Positions 11,027 to 64,000 of a stretch of 64,000 bases of DNA are shown in pieces. How positions within the stretch are numbered: the first letter of the stretch is position 1; each line of letters starts with the position of its first letter. The stretch comes from a virus: positions 68,045-132,044 of the IMG/VR virus record IMGVR_UViG_3300009184_000033; one strand, 5' to 3'. Below the pieces are notes generated by a model, which did not search any database, was not told the DNA's origin, and saw only the letters and a program-made list of their open reading frames with translations. Made by a program: the position numbers and the translations under genes.

Positions 11027-11268
11027 TATCTAGAGCTCACAATCAAGTAGTTCACGGCAGAGACCTCATCTTGTGTGGCGTTTATGAGGTACACCTCTTC
11101 GTCGACCGTGTGGATCGAGATGTTTGTGTTCTCATCTGGGGTTGCCACTATCGCAGTAGTTGACGTCTCAAGCTCAGTATTGGTGACCAAGAGCGGCGCA
11201 ATGCCACCCGTGGTCACAGATGTCTTCCCAAACTGGATTTGGACGTTGTGTACTCCGAACCAGCTCAT
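11026..11268 (-). CDS. Small hypothetical, probably structural
   Basis: Coupled ORF (stop/start overlap), beta-rich composition. Confidence 0.6.
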   Translation of the reverse strand: MSWFGVHNVQIQFGKTSVTTGGIAPLLVTNTELETSTTAIVATPDENTNISIHTVDEEVYLINATQDEVSAVNYLIVSSR

Positions 11269-11579
11269 GTATTCACCACCACGACTGAGGCTGCGCTATT
11301 GTTTGGTATGCTTGCCCCAATCTGCACCTGAGTCGTGGAGATTGATAGAACAAATACGCTAAAAGATTCATCTAGAGATGTGGCCACGACATTTGGGACT
11401 GACGTATACTCATTCTCAAAGAGATAAGTTACTGTCGAGCCGCCGTTGAAGTTCAGCGTGGCACTCTCTAGGGCAAATGGCTCCTCGGTCGTGTACACGT
11501 TACGAGCAGCCCACCTGACGCCTGGGTAGGTCTTTCTATATCTGTTTAGGTCTCTAGACTTGAGAACGACTCTTCCCAT
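11265..11579 (-). CDS. Small hypothetical, probably structural
   Basis: GAGGG RBS, ATGA overlap with next gene. Confidence 0.6.
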   Translation of the reverse strand: MGRVVLKSRDLNRYRKTYPGVRWAARNVYTTEEPFALESATLNFNGGSTVTYLFENEYTSVPNVVATSLDESFSVFVLSISTTQVQIGASIPNNSAASVVVVNT

Positions 11580-11612
11580 GGAACCCTCTGACGTAAATAG
11601 GCGTCTTTGGGA

Positions 11613-20730: not shown

Positions 20731-20733
20731 CTC

Positions 20734-22044
20734 TCAGATTTCGAAGGGTTCGCCTTCCAAAGTTGTTAGGAGCTTGACTTCGCTCTTCCAGATTTTTGAT
20801 ACGTGGCCTATGACTTTTTCTGCGTAATTGATCTCTAGATCTCTGCCATCGTGCTCGTGGTGAAGCACAAGAACGTTTCCCTTGTCGATCGATTCAACAT
20901 AGATCGTTGGTATCGTATTTGCGCCAACTTGCCTGATTAGGTTATGCTTCACCTCTTTCCAGCCCATCTCATCAGAGACATCCTCGACAACGTAGTTCTC
21001 CTTCTTCCTGCCGTAGGAGAAAAGGTTCAGCTCCTCGCACATCTCTTGGGTGAGGTAGTTTCTGATGAAGGACTCATCGTTGCACGCCTCTCTTGCGATG
21101 AAGCATTCCTCTAGTCCCATACGCTTCTCTATATCGTGAAACATGTGGAAGCCGAGGTGGTAAGGATTGATTGATCCGATCGCGGGTCTGATGACCTGGT
21201 TGTGCGACTTGATGAATGGAAGGTGAAGTTCAGGCGGGAGATTGAGCTCGTGGAGGATCCGGTAGTGCCAGTAGCTGGCCCAGCCCTCGTTCATAATCTT
21301 GGTGCGGATCTGCGGCATGAAGTACTGTGACTCAGTCCTCACAATGTCGAGAACGTCCCTCTCCCAGTCTTCCATGTTTGCGTGCTCGCCCAGGAATCCC
21401 AGAACATCGTACTCCTTCTCCAGAGGAACCTTCTCGAGGCTGTCCATTGAGACCTTGAGTCCGCGTTCCTTCTGCTCCTTGAAGCGTAGTATCATCTCCT
21501 TCTTCTTCACAGAGTGAGGAATGTACTCCTTCGGGAAGCGGTAGGTCTGGAACTGGATTGCGTGCGCAGAATCCAGTAGCTCCTCCACCTTGATGATTCC
21601 AATGCTTGGGTCCTCGATGTAGCCCTGGATGCGCTTTCTGGCATTCCTAAAGCGGTGCACAATGATGTCCGGCTGGGTGCTGGAGAACATCCTGTTGTTC
21701 TTGAAGAAGTCACTGTGGCCAACACAGTGCGCCATGATGAGCACCTGCAGGTACAGAGGATTCTCCCGCATCAGGTAAGCAATGCTGGGATTCGAGTTGA
21801 TGATGAGCTCGTATGGAAGACCCTCAGCACCAATGTTATACATCTGCTGAGTGCGCTCGAAAGACTTTCCGAAAGACCAGTGCGGGTAGTGGCTCGGCAT
21901 GCCGTGGTATGACATGTGGCCCATCATCTCGTAGTAGTCGCAGGTCTCGTACACAATTGGAAACCAGTCGAGATTGTGGCTCTCTGCGATCTCAATGATC
22001 CTCTTATCGTATTCTTCCAGTTCCTTGAAGGTCCAATCTGACAT
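20734..22044 (-). CDS. spoVR: SpoVR/YcgB family protein
   Basis: YPHWSFGK, LPYELIINSNPSIAYLM, AHCVGHSDFFKNN, TKIMNEGWASYWH, NPYHLG. Confidence 0.93.
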   Translation of the reverse strand: MSDWTFKELEEYDKRIIEIAESHNLDWFPIVYETCDYYEMMGHMSYHGMPSHYPHWSFGKSFERTQQMYNIGAEGLPYELIINSNPSIAYLMRENPLYLQVLIMAHCVGHSDFFKNNRMFSSTQPDIIVHRFRNARKRIQGYIEDPSIGIIKVEELLDSAHAIQFQTYRFPKEYIPHSVKKKEMILRFKEQKERGLKVSMDSLEKVPLEKEYDVLGFLGEHANMEDWERDVLDIVRTESQYFMPQIRTKIMNEGWASYWHYRILHELNLPPELHLPFIKSHNQVIRPAIGSINPYHLGFHMFHDIEKRMGLEECFIAREACNDESFIRNYLTQEMCEELNLFSYGRKKENYVVEDVSDEMGWKEVKHNLIRQVGANTIPTIYVESIDKGNVLVLHHEHDGRDLEINYAEKVIGHVSKIWKSEVKLLTTLEGEPFEI

Positions 22045-23213
22045 TAAAGCTTCCCTCCAAAGAATGACTTGAATGCTGGCCAGATGTCTTTCGGCGTGTT
22101 GATGTTGGCGATCTTGAAGTTGCTGTCCTTGAGCGGCTGGAGCAAGTTTCCGAGCATCGAGTCGTTGTGAGCCCAGCGCATCTTGTCCTTCTCAGGCTCA
22201 ATCTCACAGTAGCCGTACAGCTGGCACAGTGGCTTTAGCACTCTGAGTCGCTCAAGGAGCTTTGGATTGTCGTTGGAGAAGTTGTCACCGTCGCTACACT
22301 GGAACGCATAGATGTTCCAGGCGGACTGGTGGTACCGCTTCTCAATGATCTGGCTCACCATCTCGATTGCCGGCGAGACCGTGGTGCCGCCAGAGGATCC
22401 GCGCTTGAAGAACTGGTCTTCCGTGACCTCGTAGGCGGCGGTATCATGGGCAATGAATACGATCTCGGTGTTCTCATACCGTGAGCGTACAAAGTGGTAT
22501 AGCAGGAAGAAGAAGCTCCGTGCGAGATACTTCTTCTCATCGGTCATCGAGCCTGACACGTCCATGATGAAGAAGATCACGGCGTTCGAAGAGGGCTGTG
22601 AGACCTGCTTGATGTGCTTGTAGCGCAGGTCGTCATCATTGAACGAGAAGCTCTCCTGCTCCTCTGGATCATAAGAGCCGCTCGACTTTGCCACGTTTCG
22701 CCGGCGGAGCATGCGCTTCACCGTCTCCTTCTTATCAAGCCTGGGCCTGATTCCCTCGTTCCTGTAGCCGTGGCGCTTTGGCTTCTCGGTGATGATCTGC
22801 TTTAGGGACTTCTTCTCCAGCTCGGGAAGCTCTAGGCTATCGAAAAGGTAGTGTGCGAGCTCTTCGAGCGTGATCTCGACCTCGTACACTTCCTCACCAG
22901 CATCCTCGCCGGCCTTTCCTGGCTTTCCCTTCTGGGGCTTTCCGGCACTGCCGACCGTCTGTCCCCTGGATACGTCCTTTCCTGGAGCAGAACCGACCTG
23001 GCGATTTCCATTATCGCCATAGACGAATCGATACTCCTTGATGCCCTTCACGGGAATCTTGATCTTCTTCTTACCGTCCTGACCTATGATCGACTCATCC
23101 GCGACTATGTCGTGGATTCCGTCCTTGATTGCCCTATCGATCTTCTCTTTGTGACGTCGGCGGTCAGAAGCCGACCTGTCAGCGGAGGTCTTGTGCTCTT
23201 TGAAAACGGACAT
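22044..23213 (-). CDS. yeaH: YeaH/YhbH (DUF444) VWA-like protein
   Basis: VIFFIMDVSGSM (MIDAS), FFLLYHF..Y, SSGGTTVS, WNIYAFQCSDGDN. Confidence 0.92.
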   Translation of the reverse strand: MSVFKEHKTSADRSASDRRRHKEKIDRAIKDGIHDIVADESIIGQDGKKKIKIPVKGIKEYRFVYGDNGNRQVGSAPGKDVSRGQTVGSAGKPQKGKPGKAGEDAGEEVYEVEITLEELAHYLFDSLELPELEKKSLKQIITEKPKRHGYRNEGIRPRLDKKETVKRMLRRRNVAKSSGSYDPEEQESFSFNDDDLRYKHIKQVSQPSSNAVIFFIMDVSGSMTDEKKYLARSFFFLLYHFVRSRYENTEIVFIAHDTAAYEVTEDQFFKRGSSGGTTVSPAIEMVSQIIEKRYHQSAWNIYAFQCSDGDNFSNDNPKLLERLRVLKPLCQLYGYCEIEPEKDKMRWAHNDSMLGNLLQPLKDSNFKIANINTPKDIWPAFKSFFGGKL

Positions 23214-44928: not shown

Positions 44929-45559
44929 CTGCACAATCAAGTCTGGGGAAATTGTCAGCCTCGAAGACCTGAGGCTGAATGACCCCAACTGCACAATCGA
45001 GGCTGGGGTCATAATCAGGCCACCTTTAGCTCCAGAAGTTGAGTCTGTCGATAAGAAGGCAGAAACAAAGCCTGCCAAAGTCAAGAAACAGGCAGAAATC
45101 AAAAAGACAGAAGCAAAGCCTGAAGAAGTTGTTGCAAATGTAGAGGCGCCGAAAGTGGCGCCACAGAAGAAAGTGGTCACCAAAGAGGTGATCGAAGTGC
45201 CGCAGCCTGTCATCAACAATGGGCTGTCTTCAAGTGAAATTGCTGCCGGTGCGGCGGTGCTTGGTGTTGCCGCCATAGGTGCCGCAGCGGCAACTTCTGC
45301 CGCAGGAGGAATTTCATCGATACAAGCCAAGATCGCATCGATGTTCGGCTCTAAGGGCGCAATTGCTGGCGCGGCAGCGGTAACCGCTGGTACGATCGTG
45401 GCAGTCAAGGCACTGGAATCAAAGATGGGCAAGCTTGAGCAGGATATGTCAAAAATGAAAGAGGAGGTCGGTGGTGCCGCCTCCTCTATCGATAAGATTG
45501 ACGAGCTACTTGACCGGCTCAGCAGAGACGGTAACGACAAACTCGACCCGCCTGTTTAG
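44921..45559 (+). CDS. Membrane protein with K/E linker, Ala/Gly TM and coiled coil
   Basis: Coupled to previous gene; overlaps convergent 45506..49288 by 54 nt. Confidence 0.6.
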   Translation: MPDCTIKSGEIVSLEDLRLNDPNCTIEAGVIIRPPLAPEVESVDKKAETKPAKVKKQAEIKKTEAKPEEVVANVEAPKVAPQKKVVTKEVIEVPQPVINNGLSSSEIAAGAAVLGVAAIGAAAATSAAGGISSIQAKIASMFGSKGAIAGAAAVTAGTIVAVKALESKMGKLEQDMSKMKEEVGGAASSIDKIDELLDRLSRDGNDKLDPPV

Positions 45560-48500
45560 GGCCTTGCCAGCTGGCGTTCCAGAGGAATCGATCGGAGACT
45601 CATCACCCTTGCCCTCGATCGAGATCCTCTCGGTCGAGATTCCTTTTCCAGCGAGATAGTCGGCGGCAACCTTTGCCCTCTCGTATGAGAGCTCGTCAGG
45701 ATGCTTGTACTCAATCTCAGAGGAATCAGCATAACCAACTACCTTGACTCCAAATCCAGGTCGAGAGTTCAAGATAACCCAAACGCCATCGAGTGTTGCT
45801 TGTCCCCTGGCGTTCAGCTTGGAATCTCCAGCCTTGAAACCTATGCCGATCTCTTGCTTCGGAGCCGTGACCGCGTCTGGCGCAGCTGGAACAACTATCA
45901 CTATCGGCTGCTCGTACACGGTGACTGACTTGCAGTCGCATGCTGGAGCTGGTGGGGGTATGACCAGAGCTGGGGCTGGAATTACTTCAGGTTTATCATC
46001 AGAGCCAAAGGTCAACTGAGCTGATAGTTGCCAGTCGGGGTCTCCTGGCTGGCGGATGATTCCCTTGCTTCCCGCGACTCCCACGGAGAAGTTTCCTATT
46101 GTCCAGTCGAGTGATGTCCCCACAAAGAGCGAGGAAACTGGTCTCTCACCGATGTTGTAGTAGGCTTGCGTATCGACGCCAACCGTGAAGTTACCAAGAC
46201 CGTAGGCAGCTAGAGCGTTAAGGTAAGGACCGTCTCCGAGCTCGTAACCCTCGAGATCAATTTCTGGGTAAACAAGGTAACCACCACCAGCTGTAAAGCT
46301 TAGATCCCCGACCTGTCCCTCGGCACCGGCCTCGACCTGCATCACTGTGTTCGGGTGCGCGACCCCGAGCCCAACGCCAGTGGGAACAACGACCGCGAGA
46401 TCGCCGTAAGCTCCCCAGCCGTCCTCTCCGAATGCCTTTGTATATCCACGAGCTCCACCCCAGGCGTCTCCGATTCTTGGTACACCATCCTGCATAATAG
46501 ATCCCGGGAGACCCACATCGAAGGAGAAGTGATCGAAAGTGTACCTATTTGTCGTCCAGCCCCAGAAGGTGTCACCGATGACGACCGTCTCAGTGCCGTC
46601 TGGATTCACATAGGAGAGCGGGTCAGTAACGATACCGCCGACCACTGCCGATTCCTCACCCTTGAATACCGAGGCTCCCCTCGGAGGAAGAGGAACCACG
46701 CTCATCTCTGGGACCTCACCGCCTGAAGCGCCCATCAATAGTGGAGTACCCAGGATAGCAGCCATGAGACCGAGGCCACGTCGCCTCACCGAGGCGAGGA
46801 GGGCAGCTCCAAGCAAGATGATTCCACCTGATGGTCCACCACCTGTCGTTGAGCATCCGCCAGGAACGTACTTACCCACAGCTGGCTTGACTGGATCTTC
46901 TACGGGGTCTGTGTCGGTATCAACTGCTGTGTCGATGCCTGAATCAATCCCCGAGTCTATTCCGGAATCGATCCCTGAGTCGATGGCAGTATCGACTGCT
47001 GTGTCACCAGTATCTACTGGTCTGTCGTCCACTGGGTCGCATGCGTCTCCGATTCCGTCACCGTCAATATCCGTCTGATCATTAGGCTCACCGAAGCAGT
47101 TGTCGCTGTCGTCGGCGTATGTGTCACCGTCAGCATCAGAGTCACAGAAATCTCCAATACCGTCGTGATCGAAGTCTAGCTGCTCGTCGTTCGGATAGTC
47201 AGGGCAGTTGTCGGCAAGTCCGCAGACTCCGTCAGAATCGACATCGTTCGATGGATCTCCGAGGCAAGTGTCCGATCCATCGCAGACTCCATCACCATCG
47301 GCGTCGTTGAACGGATCGTATGGGCATGGGTCTATGTCAGCGCACTTGTCGTCAGAGTCGACGTCATCTTCCGGATCAAGGGGGCATGCGTCGCATCCGT
47401 CAGGGACAGTGTCGAGGTCAGAGTCGACAAGGTCATCAGAGCCTGCGCAGATGTCGATATCTCCACAGACTCCGTCCGCGTCCGAATCATTCTCAGCATC
47501 AGCTGGGCAGATGTCGACGTCTCCACAGTTTCCGTCCTCATCAGCATCGTTCATGGGATCAAGCGGGCAAGTGTCTGCCGATTCGCAGAGTCCATCGCTG
47601 TCACGGTCATCGAGCGCGTCCGATGGACAGGCGTCGACGTCTCCGCACACCCCATCATCATCTGCATCGTTCAGCTCATCGAGCGGACAGGCATCACAGT
47701 CATCAGAAAGACCATCAGAGTCTACGTCCGCGACGTCGTCGAAGCCAGGGCAGATGTCTGCAGAGTCGCAGGAGCCGTCTCCATCAGAGTCATCTGCTGA
47801 GTCGGTCGGGCAGGTGTCGCATCCGTTCGGAACAGAGTCGCCGTCGACGTCAAGCAGGTCATCGGCGCCTGGGCAAATGTCGTCCGAATCACAAGAACCG
47901 TCAGCGTCAGAGTCATCAAGGGCGTCGAATGGACAGGTGTCACAACCATCTGGGACAAAGTCCAAGTCGGTGTCCATCAGGTCATCAGACCCAGGACAGG
48001 CCTCGTTGTTTCCGCAGACAGTGTCCTCATCCTCATCGTCGAGAGGATCGTAGATGCAGATATCACATCCGTCTGGAGTTCCATCTGAGTCAGAGTCTAC
48101 GATATCGCTAAACCCTGGGCATGTGTCGAAGTCACCGCAGATTCCATCTAGGTCTTCGTCATCGAGAGGATCATTAGGGCAAACATCGCATCCGTCAGGG
48201 GTAAGATCTGAATCTGCGTCAGCAAGGTCATCGTATCCAGGGCAAATGTCGGTATCGCCACAGATACCATCAGCATCCGCATCGTTTTCAGGATCGGTCG
48301 GGCAAGTGTCCTCAGTGTCAGGTATGCCGTCAGAATCTGCATCTGGAATCACGGGTGCCTCGGCACATTCCGTCGCAGCGGTGATCGCAGAGTCATCAAG
48401 TGCATAGACAACCCTGAATGTCTCAGACTGTCCAGGTATCATATCACCTATGCGGACTGCAAGAGAGATTGCCTGATCTGCGGTGGTTGTGGATCCAACT

Positions 48501-49288
48501 GATGAGTTTAGTCCTGAGCCGTTCCAGATATTGGAACCGTCTGTGTTGCTGAATCCGCCGTGCGTGACCTTTGCGCGTGAGTCAGAGGCAAGAAGGTAGA
48601 GGTCAGACCCATCGCCTCCCGTGGCCTTCACCTCAGCGAGATCAGTTGAGGCATTTGGCTGGGAGATGATGGTGTTGGTCGTGCTGTAACCGTAACCAGT
48701 CATCACAGCGTTGTCAGGATCTACGTTCCTGAACCAGTACACGTCCGACAGGGTGCTCGATCCGTTGTTGGTGAGTGTGACGGTCATGACGATGTAGACG
48801 CCGTCATTCACAACGCCGTACTGCGTCTCAATACCAAGGTCTCCCCTGTTTCCGGTCCATGTCGCGGCCCCGCCGAGATTCCCACAGATGTCGACTTCAC
48901 AGGCAGGGTCACCGAGGCTGCCTACAATGTTCTGGCTTCCGTTGAAGTTTGTGTAGGAAGTGCCGTTGACCTCGACTCCCCATCCCTCGAGAGGCGAACC
49001 GGGAGAGAAGAAGTCACCGTAGAATGATGCCCATCCGTTGGCTTGCGGGTTCGCGACAAAACCCATCTGGCCCGTGTTGGAGCGATAGTGCCAGCCAGCA
49101 GGATACCCTCCCTCGCCAAAGGCACCTTCACTTCCAAGACCAAGCTCAACGTAGGAGTTGCGGATGAAGGCTGCGGACCCAGGATCGCTTACCTCACAGA
49201 ATCCGGAGGCGTGTGCTACTCTGGGAGCTGAAGCGAACGCTGCTAAAAGAACAGGGAATAGAATTTGATTTAGACATAGTTTGCGCAT
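45506..49288 (-). CDS. Secreted TSP3-repeat / MYXO-CTERM-like / beta-barrel / OmpA fusion protein
   Basis: Signal peptide (..VAHA); ~22 DxDxD TSP3-type repeats; DTG/DSGI linker; GGCSTTGGG..IILLGAALLASVRRR; C-terminal VVGYADS..LSYERA..GKGDESP..NRRVEF. Confidence 0.85.
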   Translation of the reverse strand: MRKLCLNQILFPVLLAAFASAPRVAHASGFCEVSDPGSAAFIRNSYVELGLGSEGAFGEGGYPAGWHYRSNTGQMGFVANPQANGWASFYGDFFSPGSPLEGWGVEVNGTSYTNFNGSQNIVGSLGDPACEVDICGNLGGAATWTGNRGDLGIETQYGVVNDGVYIVMTVTLTNNGSSTLSDVYWFRNVDPDNAVMTGYGYSTTNTIISQPNASTDLAEVKATGGDGSDLYLLASDSRAKVTHGGFSNTDGSNIWNGSGLNSSVGSTTTADQAISLAVRIGDMIPGQSETFRVVYALDDSAITAATECAEAPVIPDADSDGIPDTEDTCPTDPENDADADGICGDTDICPGYDDLADADSDLTPDGCDVCPNDPLDDEDLDGICGDFDTCPGFSDIVDSDSDGTPDGCDICIYDPLDDEDEDTVCGNNEACPGSDDLMDTDLDFVPDGCDTCPFDALDDSDADGSCDSDDICPGADDLLDVDGDSVPNGCDTCPTDSADDSDGDGSCDSADICPGFDDVADVDSDGLSDDCDACPLDELNDADDDGVCGDVDACPSDALDDRDSDGLCESADTCPLDPMNDADEDGNCGDVDICPADAENDSDADGVCGDIDICAGSDDLVDSDLDTVPDGCDACPLDPEDDVDSDDKCADIDPCPYDPFNDADGDGVCDGSDTCLGDPSNDVDSDGVCGLADNCPDYPNDEQLDFDHDGIGDFCDSDADGDTYADDSDNCFGEPNDQTDIDGDGIGDACDPVDDRPVDTGDTAVDTAIDSGIDSGIDSGIDSGIDTAVDTDTDPVEDPVKPAVGKYVPGGCSTTGGGPSGGIILLGAALLASVRRRGLGLMAAILGTPLLMGASGGEVPEMSVVPLPPRGASVFKGEESAVVGGIVTDPLSYVNPDGTETVVIGDTFWGWTTNRYTFDHFSFDVGLPGSIMQDGVPRIGDAWGGARGYTKAFGEDGWGAYGDLAVVVPTGVGLGVAHPNTVMQVEAGAEGQVGDLSFTAGGGYLVYPEIDLEGYELGDGPYLNALAAYGLGNFTVGVDTQAYYNIGERPVSSLFVGTSLDWTIGNFSVGVAGSKGIIRQPGDPDWQLSAQLTFGSDDKPEVIPAPALVIPPPAPACDCKSVTVYEQPIVIVVPAAPDAVTAPKQEIGIGFKAGDSKLNARGQATLDGVWVILNSRPGFGVKVVGYADSSEIEYKHPDELSYERAKVAADYLAGKGISTERISIEGKGDESPIDSSGTPAGKALNRRVEFVVTVSAEPVK

Positions 49289-49399: not shown

Positions 49400-49669
49400 C
49401 TATTTGATCTCGTCGACTGATTGATCCATCTCTTGATTCCAATTTGTCCTGAGCTGGATGAGCGGATTGAAGCTCGCCTTCTTCCTCTCGAGGACTAGGG
49501 CGGACTGAGGCTTCTGGAGGATTCCCTCGATCTCAAGTTCCTCGAAATCGATCTCGGTCTTCTGCTTGTAGACGACCTTTCCATCCTCGTCCCCGTCTTC
49601 GCCCGCGTTGGCGTGGCCAGGTGCAAAAAGAAGTGCGACAAAGATTGCGATTCTGATCATTCTACTCAT
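49400..49669 (-). CDS. cglF: CglF/GltF-like adventurous gliding motility protein
   Basis: Signal peptide (..HANA) then VVYKQKTEIDFEELEIEGILQKPQSALVLERKKASFNPLIQLRTNW, matching the myxobacterial CglF pattern as I recall it; AGGAG RBS. Confidence 0.7.
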   Translation of the reverse strand: MSRMIRIAIFVALLFAPGHANAGEDGDEDGKVVYKQKTEIDFEELEIEGILQKPQSALVLERKKASFNPLIQLRTNWNQEMDQSVDEIK

Positions 49670-49677
49670 GATGGCTC

Positions 49678-49959
49678 CTATGCATTCTGGATTGTCTGGA
49701 GGAAACACTCGTCCACTCCAAGGATCTGGCCGCGATATAGCACGTCATACAGCGGCTCTCTGGCATCTTCCTCGAACTGATGGCACTCGATTATGGTACA
49801 GATGTCGCCCAGCTGTATCTCTAGTTCATCGCCCTCCTCATCGAAGAGAGTTATCGATATTGCGTCGTGATAAGAGTCTGGAGCAATAAATTTGCAAAGA
49901 GAACCAGGGAACATGTCAGTACTATATCTTCTTGCGACCGCCTTTTCAGGCTGGCCCAT
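49678..49959 (-). CDS. Small KOW/SH3-like protein
   Basis: PGSLCKF..LGDICTII..YDVLY; start uncertain. Confidence 0.5.
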   Translation of the reverse strand: MGQPEKAVARRYSTDMFPGSLCKFIAPDSYHDAISITLFDEEGDELEIQLGDICTIIECHQFEEDAREPLYDVLYRGQILGVDECFLQTIQNA

Positions 49960-50001
49960 CTGCCACAGCGTCATTGAAGATCCAACGCGCAGCAAATCTT
50001 G

Positions 50002-51930
50002 TCAGTACCCGTCCTGCTCTTGAGCATGCTCCAGCGCCGACTCAAGATCTTCCGCAATCCGATTTGCATCCTGCTCGTCGATGTGCTCGCAGTCCCTGAT
50101 TATCGAGATTGCTTCCCTGGTGAGAGGGATGATCATCGCGGTGGTGTAGTTGGGTCTCTCACGGGCGCTGTCTATCATGTCCATCAGCTCAAAGAGCGCG
50201 CCAAGCGCCACTGAGTCCTCTGGACAGCCGGCGTCCTCTAGATCCATCTCCGCCATCTCAAGGGCGGCAAGTAGCTCGGATGTCTGCATCTGCTCGAGGT
50301 CCCTTCCTGCGAACATCTCTCCCGCCTCGGTGAGGCTCTTGCCGCGAACTCTTGATTCGACCACGCCGCGCGGATCCAAGATCGCGAGGACGCGCCCAGT
50401 GGTGATCTTGCCACGGCTCCAGTTGTCGAAGATCTTCTTGAAGGTCTGCCTGGAGTGCGTGACGCTCTCTTCCCAGATGTCACGGTTTTCTGGTGATAGA
50501 GTTTGCTCGAGCTCGTCGAACTTGGACATCACTTTGTGCCTGAGCTTATTGAAAGCTCTTCCGGCCGGAGTCTGTATGTCACGTGCTAGATCAAAGTTAG
50601 TGTCCATGCTTGCATGCCTGTTCTGGGCGAGCTTGTAGTTCTCCCAGATCGCCTTGTACTCTGGTGTCATGTGAAGCGTGTTGAGGAACCTCTGATAGTC
50701 CTCTATCACCTCGTCGTCGCCAGCATTAATGAGCCGCTGCGCCTGGTTGGGTCCAAAGATCTCCTTGAAGATTCCGATCAGACCTGGGATGACAGACCAT
50801 GGAGAGTTGAGAAATGAGTCAATTATTCCGTACTCGCGGAGCAATTTGCCTCGAACAGTTGCCATGACCGCAGACTCACCAATGTCAAGGGTCTTTGGAT
50901 AGCCCTTCTGACCCGGCTTCTTTCTTGGTAAGCCCTTCTTCCTGCGCTGGCGGATATTGTGCCAGAGACCCTTTGGCTTCGCTTCGTTCAGTGGCTCAAG
51001 CCCAGCAAGCTTGTGCCAGCGCTCGAGGATGGGATCTTTGTCGTATCTACGACCTGAATTCTCTTGGCTCTTTGTGGTCTCTTCTTCAGCTGGCTCGAAT
51101 GACTTGTTTGGTGTAGAAGGATTTGCCTCATTGTGAGCAAACTCACCTGGACCATAAATGTGCAGTTCTGCTGGAATCTGCTTTGCCATGTTCTTTTCTA
51201 CGTCATTGGTGTTCTTACTGAGATCATCATAGAAGTGAACTTCCTCTGGCTTTTGCGCGGCTTTGTCAACAAAGTGATCTTTTATCTTCTTGCCCTTGTT
51301 TCCGCCTGAGACGCCGAAGACTCCAGAGTTTGGCTTCGCACCCTGCTTCTCCAAGAACTCTTCCATGTCTTCAGCGTTCGTGGCGGTCAGCTTGTTGCCG
51401 TGAATGTCCTCCACCTGTCCACTGGCGGTCCTGGCAGTTACAACTGCCGTCTTGGAGCCAGCCGCGTTCGCCTTCTTGAGCTTATCAATGGTGGACGAGA
51501 TTGGCTTGGTGGTATCCAGGTTTGTGCTGCTCGAGGGAGTGTAGTCTACCAACACCTCGTCTTGTCCAGAGGCTCCAGTTGGAACTCCGAATCCAGTCGC
51601 AAACTGTCTATCTGATGGTATCTGCGACTGAATCTTGGCAAGAGCAGCAGAATTCACGTAGGCGGCATATGCTCCGTCTTTTTCGGAGATCGGTACGATG
51701 CCCGGATCAAGCAGCGCATTCGTGCTGACGCCGAGGCTCTTGAGCCAACCCTCGACCTCCTGCTTAGACTTGTGGACTGGCTTTCCGTCTCGGTACAACA
51801 TTACGGCATTCGCATTTGTAGTGACGCCAAGCGTGTCGTCAAAATCGAACAAGTGAACTTGCTTCTCTGGAGGAGCGTCACCTGGTACTGCATCTTCGAA
51901 CAATAGATCGACGAGTTTCATCCGCTTCAT
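50002..51930 (-). CDS. Leader-bearing multi-segment protein with HAD phosphatase domain
   Basis: MKLVDLLFE; HLFDFDDTL, VVTAR, HFYDD; internal ILERWHKLAGL-EPLNEA, LLREY, LTEA. Confidence 0.7.
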   Translation of the reverse strand: MKRMKLVDLLFEDAVPGDAPPEKQVHLFDFDDTLGVTTNANAVMLYRDGKPVHKSKQEVEGWLKSLGVSTNALLDPGIVPISEKDGAYAAYVNSAALAKIQSQIPSDRQFATGFGVPTGASGQDEVLVDYTPSSSTNLDTTKPISSTIDKLKKANAAGSKTAVVTARTASGQVEDIHGNKLTATNAEDMEEFLEKQGAKPNSGVFGVSGGNKGKKIKDHFVDKAAQKPEEVHFYDDLSKNTNDVEKNMAKQIPAELHIYGPGEFAHNEANPSTPNKSFEPAEEETTKSQENSGRRYDKDPILERWHKLAGLEPLNEAKPKGLWHNIRQRRKKGLPRKKPGQKGYPKTLDIGESAVMATVRGKLLREYGIIDSFLNSPWSVIPGLIGIFKEIFGPNQAQRLINAGDDEVIEDYQRFLNTLHMTPEYKAIWENYKLAQNRHASMDTNFDLARDIQTPAGRAFNKLRHKVMSKFDELEQTLSPENRDIWEESVTHSRQTFKKIFDNWSRGKITTGRVLAILDPRGVVESRVRGKSLTEAGEMFAGRDLEQMQTSELLAALEMAEMDLEDAGCPEDSVALGALFELMDMIDSARERPNYTTAMIIPLTREAISIIRDCEHIDEQDANRIAEDLESALEHAQEQDGY

Positions 51931-52133
51931 CTTGTTGTACCTACCCTTCCAATTTTTCCATCTGAGAGTATCTTCTTGATATCCTTACCAAGATCGAGAA
52001 CGCCCTGCTTGAACGGCTCGATGAATACATATGCTGCCGCCACGATGGCGATGACGATCACGCTGATGAGGAGCATGTACTCGACAGTGGACTGTCCCTC
52101 GTCATCTGCAATGAGCTGCTTCAGTAGTTCCAT
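51927..52133 (-). CDS. flp: Flp/Fap (type IVb/Tad) prepilin
   Basis: MELLKQLIADDEG|QSTVEYMLLISVIVIAIVAAAY: G/Q cleavage site, E+5 Y+6, hydrophobic helix; GAGG RBS. Confidence 0.88.
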   Translation of the reverse strand: MELLKQLIADDEGQSTVEYMLLISVIVIAIVAAAYVFIEPFKQGVLDLGKDIKKILSDGKIGRVGTTR

Positions 52134-59701: not shown

Positions 59702-60097
59702 CTATACGTGCTCGATGTCCATATCATGAAGGATCATCTGTGTTCCATCCTCCAACTTCACGTAGTGGTGACGGTACTCCTCTCGACCTCCCGGCCCAGG
59801 AACCACGACACCCTCCATCCCGTTGGCGTTCTTGTACTTGTCGGAATGGATTCTTCCAGGTGCTCCCTTCGGCATGTTGACGTTGAGGTTGATCCTCACT
59901 GCATCTCCGTGCTTGAAGAACACCTTCTGTTTCCACACAGGACTGTATAGATCACGCCAGTCATCGCTCTCCCTTCTCTTGAAAGTATCGGTCCACGGAC
60001 GTCCGGGAATGTTCCTCATGATGTCGTCATCGTACTCGGATTCCCTCAGGATCTCCTCACGGACGATCTTGCGAAGCTGTGATTCTGTGATTCTCAT
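59702..60097 (-). CDS. Leader-family protein with KOW/SH3-like C-terminus
   Basis: MRITESQLRKIVREEILRES; FKHGDAVRI..GVVV..YVKLEDG. Confidence 0.8.
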   Translation of the reverse strand: MRITESQLRKIVREEILRESEYDDDIMRNIPGRPWTDTFKRRESDDWRDLYSPVWKQKVFFKHGDAVRINLNVNMPKGAPGRIHSDKYKNANGMEGVVVPGPGGREEYRHHYVKLEDGTQMILHDMDIEHV

Positions 60098-60121
60098 GTT
60101 TGTTACCCAGGAGTAGAAATG

Positions 60122-60454
60122 TCAATATTGTCCGCGAGAATAATCGGGCTTTAGTCTTCCCCAGTACTTGCCAGTCTTGGGATCCCTGTAAACCAGTATG
60201 TTTTTGTGTGAACCCGTGCGGCCTCCCAGCACAACGGTGTTGTATGCAGCCTCAGGGCTAGGGTAGAGCATGTACCCTCCATATACGGGTTCATCTATAA
60301 CTGGTTCCCCGTTTGGAAGTCTGTAGTTCGGTCCGATCACCTCGGTCTTCGGTTCAGGATAGCGCTTCTCGAAGGGCAAAGTGTTCCAGTCTTCCTCATC
60401 GTCATTGAACATTTCACGAATTAGATTCCTGAGCTGGGATTCAGTGATTCTCAT
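60122..60454 (-). CDS. Leader-family protein (MRITESQLRNLIREM)
   Basis: Start reassigned; GGAGAG RBS; ATAGTTA upstream. Confidence 0.8.
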   Translation of the reverse strand: MRITESQLRNLIREMFNDDEEDWNTLPFEKRYPEPKTEVIGPNYRLPNGEPVIDEPVYGGYMLYPSPEAAYNTVVLGGRTGSHKNILVYRDPKTGKYWGRLKPDYSRGQY

Positions 60455-60473
60455 TCTCTCTCCAATACTCGAG

Positions 60474-60480
60474 TAACTAT
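60474..60480 (-). promoter_or_regulatory. ATANTTA motif
   Basis: 19 nt upstream of 60454. Confidence 0.55.
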
Positions 60481-60752
60481 ACTGCCGCCGGTGAAATTTC
60501 ACCATCTGTGCCGACAGACGTGCCGACAGACGTGCCGACAGACGTGCCGACAGGCACGAGGTTGCGCGGGTGGTAGGAGACCACCCGCCCCTCGAAGAGC
60601 ACGTCGACGGCGCCGTCAGGCGCCCAGACCTGCCGCTCGCGGTCGGTGGGCCCGATCACCACGCCCAGCCCCGCCGGGTTCTTCGCGTGCGGGCTCCGCC
60701 GGCGCACCAGCGTCCCCGCCTCGATCCCCACCACGCCCGGCGTGTCCGGCAT
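60477..60752 (-). CDS. Small KOW/SH3-like protein with VGTS repeat tail
   Basis: EAGTLVRRR..LGVVIG; AGGAGG RBS; start reassigned. Confidence 0.6.
   Translation of the reverse strand: MPDTPGVVGIEAGTLVRRRSPHAKNPAGLGVVIGPTDRERQVWAPDGAVDVLFEGRVVSYHPRNLVPVGTSVGTSVGTSVGTDGEISPAAV
60508..60553. repeat. 12-bp tandem repeat (gtgccgacagac) x3.8
   Basis: Exact copies at 60508, 60520, 60532, partial at 60544. Confidence 0.95.
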
Positions 60753-60827
60753 CTCGCCTCCTGCTGGGATATAATCAGGCGCGTGACCGCAGGTCACCCC
60801 GCCGGAAAAAAATCCGGCCGGCGCCGC

Positions 60828-61118
60828 TCAGCCCCGCCGCACCCGGCATGCCGCACTGAAGGCGTCCCACACCGCCCAGTGGGCCTCGGCGTCCCGGGAT
60901 CCCAGGTCCTCGGCACCCGCGAGCACCGCATCGAGCCGCCTCTGCCCGTCGAGCACCGCGTCGCGGACCTCCGCGAGGATCCCGTCGATCTCCTGGTCGA
61001 CCCGGTCGCCGTAGAGCCCGTACTTGCTCCCGCCGAAATCCATGTCGTCGTGTGACTCGGCGAGGCGCCTCGCCTCGTCCCGCACGATCCGCCTCAGCCG
61101 TGACTCCGTGATCCGCAT
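60828..61118 (-). CDS. Leader-family protein (MRITESRLRRIVRDEARRLAES)
   Basis: AGGAG RBS; ATAGTTA upstream. Confidence 0.75.
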   Translation of the reverse strand: MRITESRLRRIVRDEARRLAESHDDMDFGGSKYGLYGDRVDQEIDGILAEVRDAVLDGQRRLDAVLAGAEDLGSRDAEAHWAVWDAFSAACRVRRG

Positions 61119-61140
61119 CTCTTGAACTCCTGTACGCGAG

Positions 61141-61147
61141 TAACTAT
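61141..61147 (-). promoter_or_regulatory. ATANTTA motif
   Basis: 22 nt upstream of 61118. Confidence 0.55.
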
Positions 61148-61352
61148 ACCGACCCGGTGGCATGTGTGGATGCAATGAAAGTGCACCGGTGCGCTGTCAT
61201 GCGGGGGCCCGCAGGGCCCCGGCCAGCCGCCGCCTTGGATTCCATGGCATGCCGGACGGGTGAACCACGCGGGGCACGGGAGTTGGCATGCTGTCTCCCC
61301 ATCGGTGGCATGCATGACCCCGCGCGCGGGGAGGCCGGGGGACCCGGCGGGG

Positions 61353-61533
61353 CCCAAAAATCTCCCGGGAAAAAATCGGGCACGGGGGCACACGGGACTC
61401 TCGTTCCCGCGCGGGAAATCGGGTACCTCGGGAGAATCGGGAAGGGGTGGGCCCAGTGGAAGCCAAAATTTTCTCGGGAAAAACCAGACTCGAGAAGCCC
61501 AGTCAAAGCCAAAAAGTTCTCGGGAAAAAAAAG
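61353..61533. repeat. Three imperfect A-tract repeats CCAAAA-N-(C/T)CGGGAAAAAA
   Basis: Copies at 61353, 61462, 61508 in a GC-rich non-coding stretch. Confidence 0.75.
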
Positions 61534-61642
61534 AATTCCACCTTAGCCAGGCCTCCCCGCGAGGCCCCCGACAGAGCATGCAGCGGGCCCCCAGAGGGGG
61601 GCCCCCTGGGCCCATTTTTGGGGGCCCTCGAGGGGGCCCCTC

Positions 61643-61754
61643 TGTAACGTTACAATGGCCCCCTGCGGGGGGCTAAATAACATGTTACAGGGGGTGTAAC
61701 ATTGGGCCCCATTGTAACGTTACAATCACTGGGGTGTAACCCTGTAACGTTACA
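61643..61754. repeat. Cluster of TGTAACGTTACA palindromes and TGTAAC half-sites
   Basis: Full at 61643, 61713 (16-bp ATTGTAACGTTACAAT), 61743; GGGGTGTAAC at 61691, 61731; TAACATGTTA at 61678. Confidence 0.9.
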
Positions 61755-61755
61755 C

Positions 61756-62109
61756 TCACCACGCCGCTGGGTAGCGGTCCACGTCCGCCTCCCAGTCACG
61801 GCAGGCGTCGGCCTCGCGGCCGTGGGCCAGGAGCTCCTGCGTCATCTCCTCCCACTCCTCGGCGGTGCGCTCCCGCCAGTCGTACCCCCGGGCGCGGAAG
61901 TTGCGGACCTCCTTGTGCGTCTCCGCCCAGTCGCAGTAGGCGAGGTAGCTGTCGAGCTCGGCGCCCGTGTGCACCCCGGACTCGGCCCAGTACTCCGCGC
62001 TCTCGGGCAGGGTCCCGTAGAAGGTGAGACCCATCGCCTCCGCCCGGGCGATCGTGGCGAGGTTGCGCTCCGCGGCGCGGGTGGCGGCGGTGGTGGTGTT
62101 GCTGGTCAT
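61756..62109 (-). CDS. Hypothetical protein (probable early gene)
   Basis: AGGAGG RBS within repeated cassette. Confidence 0.75.
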   Translation of the reverse strand: MTSNTTTAATRAAERNLATIARAEAMGLTFYGTLPESAEYWAESGVHTGAELDSYLAYCDWAETHKEVRNFRARGYDWRERTAEEWEEMTQELLAHGREADACRDWEADVDRYPAAW

Positions 62110-62114
62110 CTCTC

Positions 62115-62158
62115 TGCCTCCTGAGATCTGTTATTCTGGCGAGATGCGGGTGGGAAGG
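62115..62158 (-). promoter_or_regulatory. Repeated promoter/RBS cassette, copy 1
   Basis: CCTTCCCA-N14-GAATAACAGATCTCAGGAGGCA. Confidence 0.75.
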
Positions 62159-62198
62159 TCCGTGCGGGATTTATTTTGTGCCGCGCCCGGAGCGCAGT

Positions 62199-62405
62199 TC
62201 ACTGCGCTCGGTAGATCGACTGGAGACCGGCGTTCTTCGCGTCCCGCTCGTTGTAGTACCCGCCGCCGGACCAGGTCCCCTTCGGGCCCGTCACCTCGAA
62301 GTGCCACCCGAAGCGGGCCACCTTCCAGGTGGTGAGGGTCCAGCCCGGGAAGTTGTTCACGAAGACGTCGAGGTCGAAGGTCTTGACACTGAGTCGGGTC
62401 TGCAT
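62199..62405 (-). CDS. Hypothetical protein (probable early gene)
   Basis: Preceded by cassette copy 2. Confidence 0.7.
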   Translation of the reverse strand: MQTRLSVKTFDLDVFVNNFPGWTLTTWKVARFGWHFEVTGPKGTWSGGGYYNERDAKNAGLQSIYRAQ

Positions 62406-62407
62406 GT

Positions 62408-62451
62408 TGCCTCCTGAGATCTGTTATTCCGGTGGGACCGCGCTGGGAAGG
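62408..62451 (-). promoter_or_regulatory. Repeated promoter/RBS cassette, copy 2
   Basis: Identical 22-mer and 8-mer, same 14-nt spacer. Confidence 0.75.
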
Positions 62452-62467
62452 ATGCGCGGGACTTATT

Positions 62468-62704
62468 TCAGGCCGCGCTCATGAGCTTCTTGACGCGCTG
62501 TCCCTGCTCCTTGATGACCTCGCCGGTCTTCGTGTCCACCATCTCCAGCGCCCAGTAGGCACCGGCGGACGACTGCTCGTGGTGGAAGACCGCCTTCGCG
62601 ACCAGGAGCTGGCGGACCGGGAACCAGCTGAAGGGCTGGTACTCGACCATGTCGCCGACCGAGTAGCTGACGAGGGTCTTCGTGTTCGTGACTTCGCGGA
62701 TCAT
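62468..62704 (-). CDS. Small KOW/SH3-like protein (probable early gene)
   Basis: SYSVGDMVEY; preceded by cassette copy 3. Confidence 0.7.
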   Translation of the reverse strand: MIREVTNTKTLVSYSVGDMVEYQPFSWFPVRQLLVAKAVFHHEQSSAGAYWALEMVDTKTGEVIKEQGQRVKKLMSAA

Positions 62705-62709
62705 TCTGT

Positions 62710-62753
62710 TGCCTCCTGAGATCTGTTATTCTCGCCGCACCCAGTTGGGAAGG
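62710..62753 (-). promoter_or_regulatory. Repeated promoter/RBS cassette, copy 3
   Basis: Identical 22-mer and 8-mer, same 14-nt spacer. Confidence 0.75.
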
Positions 62754-62848
62754 AGGAACTTGCACAATTTTGTCCGCGCGCAGCGTTGCCCGGCGCGCCC
62801 CCGATTTCCAGCAGGCCATGGTGACCTATTGGCCAGGGGCCAGCAGCC

Positions 62849-64000
62849 TCAGGCGGCCTTTGCGGCCGGCCACTTCATCTTGATGACCACGTCGTTCGAC
62901 TGGGGCTTGAACTGGAGTTCACCGCCCGGGGTGATCAGCCAGCACCGGCGGGCGACGCAGGGACCGGGGTCCGAGGCGTACCCGTCCGTGATGATGATGC
63001 CGCCGTCGAACTCGTCCCGGCTGGCGACCAGGTGCTTGCTCGGCGCGCTGAAGTCCGTCCCACCGGTGCGGGTCCGGGTCGGTCCCTTCGCCTTGCCGCG
63101 CTTCCATTCCGCCTTGGACTTCAGGTCGACCTCGGTGTCGAAGTGGAAGGTGGTGAACGACGTGAACTTGGTGAAGGCCTCGAGCTCCCCGAATGCGAGG
63201 GCGAGCTCGTCGTCCCCGACCGAACCCGACTGGTCGATGTAGACTGCGAGCGAGGAGGTGTACCCGCGCTTCGCACCGGTCGCGAGGCCCGGCATCCGCT
63301 TGTTCAGGCGGGACCAGGAGGTCGTCCGGCTGCCGCGGCGGGAGTTCCCGACGAAGTGCTTCAGGACCTCCTGCCAGGGGACCTCATTGGCGAGCATCGC
63401 ACGGATGTTCTCGCGCATCTCGGCCGAGACCGAACCCCACTGGCCCTTGGAGTCGCAATCGCTCGCCGCACGGCGGACGATCTCCTTGAGCTTCGCCTTC
63501 GCCATGGCCTTGGACTCGGCGGACTCATCGCCGGCGGCGTCCCCATCGGACGGGTCGCCACCCCAGTCCCCGTGGTCGTCCATCTCACCGGCGCCACCGG
63601 CACCATTCTCGATCGTGTCCGCAATCTCGGGGTCCGCCATGAACCGGGCGAAGTACTCCTCTGAGGAGAGACCCTTGGGCAGGTCGCGGATGAAGTCCGA
63701 CAGCTTCTGCCAGCGGGCGACCGCCTCGGCACCCATCTTCGCCTGCTCCTTCGCGGTCAGGGGCTTGAACGCCTCACCGGGGATGAGGCCACAGTCCGGG
63801 AGGAGTTCCCGGGCGATCTGGGAGTTGATCGCGCAGTCGGTGGAGTAGTTCCACACCCGGTGGGGTTCGTGGCGTCGGGTCGTACAGTGCTCGTAGACCA
63901 GGTGCAGGCACTCGTGGATGTTGAGACCTTTGACCTTGCCGGCGGACTGCTTGGCGAGCGTCGCGAGGAACTTCGGGTTCCAGTAGAACCGGATGTCGCC
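62849..64000 (-). CDS. DUF2201-type HEXXH metallopeptidase + VWA protein, 5' end outside window
   Basis: Frame open to 64000: YWNPKF..IHECLH..WNYSTDCAIN; VYIDQSGSV (MIDAS), GGTDF, IIITDGY. Confidence 0.88.
   Translation of the reverse strand, partial: GDIRFYWNPKFLATLAKQSAGKVKGLNIHECLHLVYEHCTTRRHEPHRVWNYSTDCAINSQIARELLPDCGLIPGEAFKPLTAKEQAKMGAEAVARWQKLSDFIRDLPKGLSSEEYFARFMADPEIADTIENGAGGAGEMDDHGDWGGDPSDGDAAGDESAESKAMAKAKLKEIVRRAASDCDSKGQWGSVSAEMRENIRAMLANEVPWQEVLKHFVGNSRRGSRTTSWSRLNKRMPGLATGAKRGYTSSLAVYIDQSGSVGDDELALAFGELEAFTKFTSFTTFHFDTEVDLKSKAEWKRGKAKGPTRTRTGGTDFSAPSKHLVASRDEFDGGIIITDGYASDPGPCVARRCWLITPGGELQFKPQSNDVVIKMKWPAAKAA

What the first reader, a model, noticed from the sequence alone, without database searches (positions are those of the whole stretch)
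49400..49669. Phage-encoded CglF/GltF gliding-motility protein directly upstream of the TraAB-like gene
Seen: secreted 89-aa protein with YKQKTEIDF..IEG.LQKP..LVLERK..F..LI.LR. Known: CglF is one of the Cgl proteins restored between cells by TraAB exchange. The motif match is from memory. Inference: a functional or dominant-negative motor component; its adjacency mirrors the host functional link.
Basis: partly seen in the sequence, partly recalled or inferred. Interest (0 to 1): 0.75.

Follow-up and report, generated by a model that had tools for sequence, protein, structure and literature searches.

The report
Phage copy of gliding-machine linker GltF
A large uncultured phage carries its own exported copy of GltF (CglF), the small periplasmic linker of the myxobacterial gliding machine. 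Dozens of other uncultured phages keep this one subunit and none of the rest, so phages appear to act on that machine during infection.

Summary
Window 49400-49669 (- strand) encodes an 89-aa protein with a Sec-type signal peptide and exactly the quoted motif. It matches NCBIfam NF033764 (CglF) over its full length (E 5.5e-16, 58 bits). That is below the 90-bit equivalog cut-off, but GltF genes lying between gltE and gltG in Myxococcota genomes score the same.

The contig is a real large phage with tail sheath, head and portal genes. Thirty-four other IMG/VR viral contigs carry a relative, and none carries any other glt gene in the DNA held. In all 18 cellular loci the gene sits in a gltA/B-C-D-E-F-G-H cluster. 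The window's copy belongs to a phage-only clade (support 100/99), has phage-like GC, is under purifying selection (omega 0.05-0.16) and keeps every conserved family residue.

The best reading is a working GltF that plugs into the host Agl-Glt-type complex. I rate identity at about 0.9. Whether it substitutes for the host subunit or poisons the complex is unresolved.

The "TraAB-like neighbour" part is not supported. That gene matches neither the TraA nor the TraB model beyond an OmpA domain, and the adjacency is not conserved. The conserved neighbours are a Flp-like prepilin and a HAD-like gene.

This scan found phage GltF before on other DNA (e1-5411243).

The parts
49400..49669 (-). gltF/cglF-like CDS, 89 aa plus stop
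   Evidence: NF033764 E 5.5e-16, full-length match
49675..49679 (-). AGGAG ribosome-binding site, 5 nt before the ATG; overlapped by the TAG stop of the upstream ORF
   Evidence: read directly
49604..49669 (-). Type I signal peptide, residues 1-22 (basic n-region, hydrophobic core, A-N-A then G)
   Evidence: Sequence reading. The AF2 model has a helix at 3-19. A22 is conserved in at least 90% of 122 homologues. No signal-peptide predictor was available.
49511..49573 (-). Conserved block, residues 33-53 (VYKQKTEIDFE..E.EG.LQK). It is the inferred counterpart of the GltF strand that pairs with the GltG TonB-like C-terminal domain.
   Evidence: Conservation. The mapping to the published model (PMC11761067) is my inference from a 58-residue numbering offset.
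49403..49447 (-). C-terminal helix, residues 75-89. It is the inferred counterpart of the GltF helix that inserts into the GltC crevice.
   Evidence: AF2 helix at 78-88; published model read; the mapping is inferred
49678..49995 (-). 105-aa ORF directly upstream, ending 8 nt before the gltF ATG; no family match, no homologue in the related loci
50002..51930 (-). 642-aa HAD-like gene. Its two halves are separate genes in other phages and lie beside gltF there.
   Evidence: DUF2608/HAD; families 1 and 4 are found in 23 and 16 viral loci.
51927..52133 (-). 68-aa Flp-like prepilin (G|QSTVEY), ATGA-overlapped with the HAD-like gene. It is next to gltF in all six closest phage loci.
   Evidence: Pfam support is weak only (Class III signal peptide and DUF4244, E 0.018).
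45506..49288 (-). Downstream 1260-aa envelope protein with TSP3 repeats, an internal Cys + hydrophobic + RRR tag and a C-terminal OmpA domain. It is not demonstrably TraA or TraB.

Best explanation
The gene encodes a phage-borne, exported homologue of GltF (CglF). GltF is the small, largely unfolded periplasmic linker of the Agl-Glt-type envelope machine of Myxococcota. After Sec export and cleavage behind Ala22, the 67-residue mature peptide would most likely bind the host's own Glt proteins in the way host GltF is modelled to do. In that model a strand pairs with the TonB-like C-terminal domain of GltG, and the C-terminal helix inserts into GltC. The phage protein would thus take the linker position between the motor-coupled inner-membrane part and the outer-membrane platform. 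I think it most likely acts as a working replacement or supplement that keeps or sets the state of that machine while the host's own supply fails during infection. This would be analogous to phage copies of labile host subunits. Shown: family identity, phage location, spread among phages, purifying selection, and retention of all conserved residues. Inferred: export, binding partners, effect on motility, and a Myxococcota host. Confidence in identity is about 0.9. Confidence in the 'working linker' mechanism is about 0.45-0.5.
For: Family identity: NF033764 E 5.5e-16 over the full length. The core is 34-43% identical to copies that exceed the curated cut-off. It is 57-73% identical to cellular copies that lie between gltE and gltG in a gltA/B-C-D-E-F-G-H cluster in 18 of 18 loci.

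Cut-off: those syntenic copies score 54-59 bits, as the phage copy does. Only 3 of 151 Myxococcota genomes exceed the cut-off, while 109 have a match.

Phage setting: sheath, head and portal genes are on the same record.

Spread: 34 further viral contigs carry a relative, in phage-type neighbourhoods, and none has another glt gene (tblastn at E 1e-3).

Long residence in phages: the window's copy falls in a phage-only clade with support 100/99. The gene's GC is 0.51, against 0.54 for the phage and 0.60-0.70 for cells.

Selection: dN is 0.08-0.3 with saturated dS, giving omega 0.05-0.16 where it can be computed.

Function kept: every family-wide conserved residue is present and most phage-specific changes are conservative (D46E, V47I, D61E, F77W, M81I). 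The constraint profile along the peptide is the same in phages and cells, with no relaxation of either putative interface.

Shape: the AF2 model gives a signal helix, an extended middle and a C-terminal helix. This matches the published description of GltF, which bridges GltC, GltD and GltG (PMC11761067).

Biology of the host protein: GltF is an 89-aa protein with a signal peptide, is needed for gliding and localises to focal adhesions (PMC3169522).
Against: The host is unidentified. The phage GC (0.53) is far from that of the closest cellular carriers (0.60-0.70). A search for host DNA at the GC-rich contig end found only chance-level matches. Whether the cellular clusters drive gliding in those uncultured organisms is itself inferred, since Myxococcus also has a paralogous Nfs spore-coat version. 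Clade-wide phage-specific substitutions include one non-conservative change (E50 to I/V). These could mean altered rather than preserved function. The score is below NCBI's equivalog cut-off. Only 39% of the phage genome is held, so other glt genes elsewhere in the phage cannot be excluded.
Confidence: 0.5

Rival explanations
1. Poison or re-tuning subunit. The phage GltF binds the same partners but blocks or alters force transmission. This would stop or change host gliding, for example to keep the infected cell in place within a swarm or biofilm.
For: All eight members of the window's phage clade share fixed differences from cellular copies (E46, Q52, E61, W77, and I/V at 50 where cells have E). 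Of the 120 closest metagenome clusters, 110 carry the same E+W signature. Carrying a single subunit without its partners is what a dominant-negative factor would look like.
Against: Neither putative interface is lost or relaxed, whereas a simple decoy would be expected to lose one. Most substitutions are conservative. The second phage clade keeps F77 and V52 as cells do.
Confidence: 0.25
2. Superinfection exclusion or receptor control. By changing the state of the Glt outer-membrane platform, or with the Flp-like pilin the state of Tad-type pili, the phage hides its own receptor from later phages.
For: gltF is tightly linked to a nearly invariant Flp-like prepilin in the six closest phages and lies next to a large exported OmpA-domain protein. 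This looks like a cluster of envelope-directed genes. The Glt platform is reported to control surface exposure of the adhesin CglB (abstract listed).
Against: GltF is periplasmic and cannot mask a surface receptor directly. The receptor is unknown. The low-GC phage clade has gltF without the Flp-like gene.
Confidence: 0.1
3. Adaptor for a viral purpose unrelated to motility. The peptide hooks onto the proton-driven, TonB-like GltG/AglRQS motor, or onto a non-gliding Glt/Nfs-like machine. It would energise or position phage-made envelope proteins, or assist entry or release.
For: In cells a second, more distant paralogue exists in each genome. Glt-like clusters serve other roles in Myxococcus (Nfs; my knowledge of Luciano et al. 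2011 and Wartel et al. 2013). The genes surrounding gltF in phages are conserved phage genes of unknown function.
Against: No phage partner with a TonB-like or Glt-like domain was found in the record. The phage copy resembles the cluster-encoded paralogue rather than the distant one.
Confidence: 0.1
4. Artefact: a piece of host DNA, a chimeric assembly, or a chance ORF.
For: The record is a metagenome assembly rated only 39% complete. The last 4 kb of the window has host-like GC.
Against: The gene lies 10 kb from that end, between phage genes on the same strand. Its GC is phage-like. The same gene, with the same phage neighbours, recurs in independent viral contigs from many samples. It is under purifying selection.
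Confidence: 0.02

Closest known systems
GltF = CglF of Myxococcus xanthus (MXAN_4868; NCBIfam NF033764)
   Same: Both are 89 aa with a type I signal peptide. They share the conserved skeleton VVYK.KT..DFE....G.L.(K/R)P......R......LI..R..F..EM..S..E. The predicted shape is also the same: extended, with a C-terminal helix. The core is 34-43% identical to copies above the model cut-off (PMC3169522, PMC11761067).
   Different: It is encoded by a phage and stands without any other glt gene. It scores 58 bits against the 90-bit equivalog cut-off. It carries clade-specific substitutions (E46, I50, Q52, E61, W77).
GltF orthologues in the contiguous gltA/B-C-D-E-F-G-H clusters of uncultured freshwater Myxococcota MAGs (loci L036-L053)
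   Same: These are the nearest cellular relatives, 57-73% identical, with the same length and motifs and the same HMM score range.
   Different: They always lie between gltE and gltG. Their GC is 0.60-0.70, against 0.51 for the phage gene. They read DV.GEL / LDRKK / DFN where the phage clade reads EIEGIL / LERKK / DWN or NWN.
Phage auxiliary genes that encode a single labile subunit of a host machine (for example cyanophage psbA/D1). This is an analogy from my own knowledge.
   Same: One subunit of a multi-protein host complex is carried alone. It is conserved across many phages and under purifying selection.
   Different: The target is a motility and envelope machine rather than metabolism. 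Nothing shows that GltF is short-lived or limiting.
TraA/TraB outer-membrane exchange proteins
   Same: The neighbour has Cys/Asp-rich repeats, an internal Cys-hydrophobic-RRR tag and an OmpA domain. This resembles the TraA + TraB outline described in PMC3325183.
   Different: There is no TraA model match. The TraB match is confined to the OmpA domain. No PA14 domain is found. The relatives of the C-terminal half are generic OmpA proteins.

Membership tests
GltF/CglF (NF033764) | Significant full-length match to the family profile | tested here: met
   E 5.5e-16, 58.4 bits, profile positions 7-88 of 88; 1.6e-16 in the six-frame search
GltF/CglF (NF033764) | Score above NCBI's curated equivalog cut-off (90 bits) | tested here: not met
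   The phage copy scores 58.4 bits. The cut-off is narrow: only 3 of 151 sampled Myxococcota genomes pass it while 109 match. Syntenic GltF genes score 54-59 bits. I therefore file it as a family homologue, not as an NCBI equivalog.
GltF/CglF (NF033764) | Small (about 80-95 aa) exported protein with a type I signal peptide | tested here: met
   89 aa. The n-, h- and c-regions with A-N-A|G are read from the sequence. A22 is conserved in at least 90% of homologues. The model has a helix at 3-19. No dedicated signal-peptide predictor was available.
GltF/CglF (NF033764) | Conserved residue skeleton of the mature peptide | tested here: met
   All columns conserved across phage and cellular copies are present.
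GltF/CglF (NF033764) | Largely unfolded peptide with a C-terminal helix | tested here: met
   AF2: pTM 0.23, extended at 20-77, helix at 78-88. The published description is in PMC11761067.
GltF/CglF (NF033764) | Gene located between gltE and gltG in a glt cluster | tested here: not met
   No other glt gene is found in the phage record or in the 34 viral loci. The feature is met in 18 of 18 cellular loci wherever the contig reaches far enough.
GltF/CglF (NF033764) | Binds GltG C-terminal domain, GltC and GltD; needed for gliding; localises to focal adhesions | not testable with these tools
   Needs multimer modelling or experiments. Only single-chain prediction was available.
TraA (NF033759), for the downstream neighbour | Match to the TraA profile; PA14-like head | tested here: not met
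   No match in the record at E 0.01 (the controls also did not ring). No PA14 domain or any other family in residues 1-330.
TraB (NF033763), for the downstream neighbour | Match to the TraB profile beyond the OmpA domain | tested here: not met
   25.7 bits against a cut-off of 700, confined to the OmpA domain. Residues 820-1140 match no family. The relatives found are generic OmpA proteins.
MYXO-CTERM sorting tag, for the downstream neighbour | Cys, Gly-rich stretch, hydrophobic helix, Arg cluster | tested here: inconclusive
   The motif is visible by eye around residues 800-830, but no NCBIfam hit at E 0.1. Here it is internal, not C-terminal.
Flp-family type IVb prepilin, for the upstream neighbour 51927-52133 | G|XXXXEY processing site followed by a hydrophobic helix; profile match | tested here: inconclusive
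   G|QSTVEY + hydrophobic stretch is read from the sequence and is invariant in six phages. The only profile hits are weak: Class III signal peptide and DUF4244, both E 0.018 and below gathering scores.

The most novel reading that the evidence does not exclude
The phage GltF is not a spare part but an adaptor. Through it, large phages of gliding predatory bacteria would commandeer the host's proton-driven, TonB-like Agl/GltG motor and outer-membrane platform. CglF-class proteins can pass between cells on contact, so the effect might even reach uninfected neighbours and change group movement in the phage's favour.
Probability: 0.08. Interest if true: 0.85.

Novelty: new variant of a known kind. 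Interest (0 to 1): 0.62.

Why it matters
GltF is the least understood core part of the myxobacterial focal-adhesion gliding machine. It is known only from genetics, localisation and a predicted model in which it ties GltC, GltD and GltG together.

At least 35 uncultured phage genomes, in two or more clades, keep just this 89-aa subunit under strong purifying selection. That marks GltF as a control point, or a labile point, of the machine. It also supplies a natural panel of variants for testing which residues matter.

The gene is a host marker for a set of large aquatic phages with no cultured relative; no GenBank phage record has the gene. It would also be a rare example of a phage auxiliary gene aimed at surface motility rather than metabolism. 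I found no paper describing it in the library searched.

Tried and rejected
I therefore cannot show that the 110 clusters with the phage-clade signature are phage-borne. That is inferred from the signature alone.

2. GenBank phages: no DNA match for 44-54 kb of the window and no tblastn match for the protein, even at E 1.

3. Host identification from the GC-rich window end (59.8-64 kb) against 182 genomes of the class that holds the closest cellular GltF: only matches of 27-91 bp, at chance level. There are no tRNAs in the window.

4. Other Glt parts in the phage: GltG, GltC, the AgmX/PglI tail domain and tblastn with eight cluster proteins all gave nothing.

5. TraA/TraB identity of the neighbour: rejected at the sequence level.

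6. Single versus multiple acquisition: a tree on 62 columns cannot decide. It needs 3 label changes, but the well-supported branches force only 1.

7. Promoter and terminator scan of 45-52.6 kb: the counts are no higher than in shuffled sequence, so I make no claim about transcription signals.

8. Pathak & Wall 2012 (PMC3318471), the primary cglF paper, is not held. The statement that cglF is stimulatable rests on PMC3325183 and PMC4488436.

9. A decoy that has lost one interface: rejected as the leading model, because constraint is equal along the peptide in phages and cells.

Full report
**What is there.**
On the - strand, 49669 down to 49400 is an 89-codon ORF. It is preceded by AGGAG at a 5-nt spacing, and the stop codon of a 105-codon upstream ORF overlaps that site.
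- The product starts with a basic n-region, a hydrophobic core and A-N-A|G, which is a typical signal peptidase I site.
- Ala22 is conserved in at least 90% of 122 homologues.
- The mature 67 residues begin with an acidic stretch.

**Is it CglF/GltF?**
- NCBIfam NF033764 (gliding_CglF) matches from profile position 7 to 88 of 88, with E 5.5e-16 and 58.4 bits.
- Pfam and PHROGs have no model for it.
- The score is below NCBI's 90-bit equivalog cut-off, so I tested what that cut-off means.
- Among 151 genomes sampled across the phylum of the nearest cellular carriers, 109 have a match but only 3 exceed 90 bits.
- Copies above the cut-off align with the phage protein at 34-43% identity and share the skeleton VVYK.KT..DFE....G.L.(K/R)P...R......LI..R..F..EM..S..E.
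- The closest cellular relatives are 57-73% identical. They come from freshwater MAGs labelled Myxococcota or Deltaproteobacteria, with GC 0.60-0.70.
- These relatives were tested by context. In L041 the neighbours are two OMP_myx_plus barrels, then GltC, a GltD-like TPR protein, GltE, [CglF], GltG and CglE (GltH).
- The same order holds in all 17 other cellular loci as far as each contig reaches.
- Those syntenic GltF genes score 54-59 bits on the same model.
- The phage protein is therefore as good a GltF as the bona fide GltF of non-Myxococcaceae.
- CglF and GltF are the same gene (PMC4488436).
- M. xanthus GltF (MXAN_4868) is 89 aa with a signal peptide and no Pfam domain. It is required for gliding and localises to focal-adhesion clusters in an AglQ-dependent way (PMC3169522).

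**Is it in a phage?**
- The window is the right-hand 64 kb of a 132-kb IMG/VR record that CheckV rates 39% complete, which implies a genome of roughly 300 kb or more.
- The record encodes a tail sheath, a major head protein and a portal.
- It also encodes tail fibres, PhoH, a helicase and an ATPase.
- Nearly all genes are on one strand.
- The gltF-like gene has GC 0.51, like its surroundings (0.54) and unlike cellular gltF regions.

**How widespread is it?**
- A scan of IMG/VR found 34 further viral contigs with a relative.
- Six of them (L002-L007) share other genes with the window, including tail fibres, an 841-aa protein and an ATPase.
- The rest are mainly low-GC (0.34-0.42) contigs of up to 289 kb. 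They share a long syntenic, single-strand block around the gene.
- That block is typical phage DNA: nuclease, NUDIX and PHROG-only families.
- None of the 34 loci, nor the 132-kb record, contains any other glt gene.
- No GenBank phage record has the gene.
- Of the 120 closest 90%-identity clusters in metagenomes, 110 carry the LER..+W77 signature. In my labelled set that signature occurs in 8 of 8 members of the window's phage clade and in no cellular copy.

**History and selection.**
- On a 62-column tree the window groups with L002-L009 in a phage-only clade with support 100/99.
- Most low-GC phages form a second clade (90/96).
- One or several acquisitions cannot be told apart.
- Within the window's clade, synonymous sites are saturated (dS at least 0.9, or not computable) while dN is 0.08-0.3. 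Omega is 0.05-0.16 where it can be computed.
- The clade spans phages with GC from 0.38 to 0.57, yet the protein cores stay 61-89% identical.
- This is an old, maintained phage gene, not a recent pick-up.

**What the sequence says about function.**
- Every column conserved across cells and phages is intact.
- The phage-clade differences are mostly conservative (D46E, V47I, D61E, F77W, M81I). The exceptions are V52Q and E50 to I/V.
- Mean pairwise identity by segment is the same in phages and cells. The 33-53 and 54-74 blocks are high and the C-terminal helix is moderate.
- Neither end is therefore decaying.
- AF2 with 122 homologues gives a signal helix, an extended middle and a helix at 78-88 (pLDDT 77, pTM 0.23).
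- This fits the published picture of GltF as largely disordered with a C-terminal helix.
- In that model (PMC11761067) the C-terminal helix sits in a GltC crevice and a strand pairs with the GltG TonB-like domain. GltF thereby bridges GltC, GltD and GltG.
- The paper numbers a 147-residue form. Subtracting 58 puts the strand at about 36-53 and the helix at about 75-89 of an 89-residue protein, which are the two conserved blocks here.
- That mapping is my inference.

**Mechanism.**
- The most economical reading is an exported peptide that occupies the GltF position in the host's machine.
- I favour a working substitute or supplement (about 0.45-0.5).
- The alternatives are a poison or re-tuning subunit (0.25), a role in superinfection exclusion (0.1), and an adaptor for some other viral use of the motor (0.1).
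- An artefact is very unlikely (0.02).

**The neighbour claim.**
- The 1260-aa gene downstream has TSP3 repeats and an OmpA domain.
- It gives no TraA match, a TraB match only in the OmpA domain and no PA14 domain. Its relatives are generic OmpA proteins.
- A homologue lies near gltF only in L004/L005.
- The linkage that is conserved is with a 68-aa Flp-like prepilin. That protein is nearly invariant in six phages, though its profile support is weak.
- A second conserved linkage is with a HAD-like gene found beside gltF in 23 viral loci.

**Earlier notes.**
The scan has seen phage GltF on other DNA (e1-5411243, followed up; e1-5780627; e1-5780637). My results agree with those notes. They add the cluster synteny, the phage clade, the selection analysis and the negative result on TraAB.

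Noticed in passing
window 51927-52133 (-): A 68-aa Flp-like prepilin (G|QSTVEY followed by a hydrophobic helix). Its mature part is almost invariant in six related phages, including one with 38% GC. It is always beside gltF there and is absent from the low-GC phage clade. Profile support is weak (E 0.018).
   Followed up: partly
window 50002-51930 (-): A 642-aa HAD/DUF2608-like gene. Its N- and C-terminal halves are separate adjacent genes in other phages. The N-terminal family lies near gltF in 23 of 34 viral loci, making it the most conserved neighbour.
   Followed up: partly
window 45506-49288 (-): A 1260-aa exported protein with an unassigned 330-aa head, TSP3 repeats, an internal Cys + hydrophobic + RRR tag, an unassigned 300-aa region and an OmpA domain. 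It does not match the TraA or TraB models. Close relatives exist only as short metagenome fragments and in L004/L005.
   Followed up: partly
window 60000-64000: GC rises from about 0.54 to 0.63-0.65 at the contig end. An HNH endonuclease (PHROG 1314) lies at 62849-63856. A search of 182 genomes of the candidate host class gave only short, chance-level matches.
   Followed up: partly
window 18784-23213 (-): Three adjacent genes match the PrkA/YeaG-type kinase and neighbouring families, one of them annotated 'sporulation protein'. The kinase is about 32% identical to genes in Thermus phages, Ralstonia phage RsoM2USA and 600-kb metagenomic phages.
   Followed up: no
cellular genomes G001-G005 and proteins P0149, P0199, P0262; G112:C258, G105:C278: Each cellular genome has a second, more distant CglF-family paralogue (23-35 bits). 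Some genomes also have a CglF-like segment inside open frames of 860-1390 aa, which may be fused forms.
   Followed up: no
L029 (for example 5175-6221, 8644-9111, 10566-11555, 11557-12255): Several unrelated proteins of the low-GC phages begin with a similar leader (..LLENWRKF(I/V)TE..).
   Followed up: no
L006 and L009 versus the window: Phages whose GC differs by 13-19 points (0.38-0.41 against 0.54-0.57) carry GltF and Flp-like proteins 71-92% identical to the window's. The protein is strongly constrained across very different genome compositions.
   Followed up: partly
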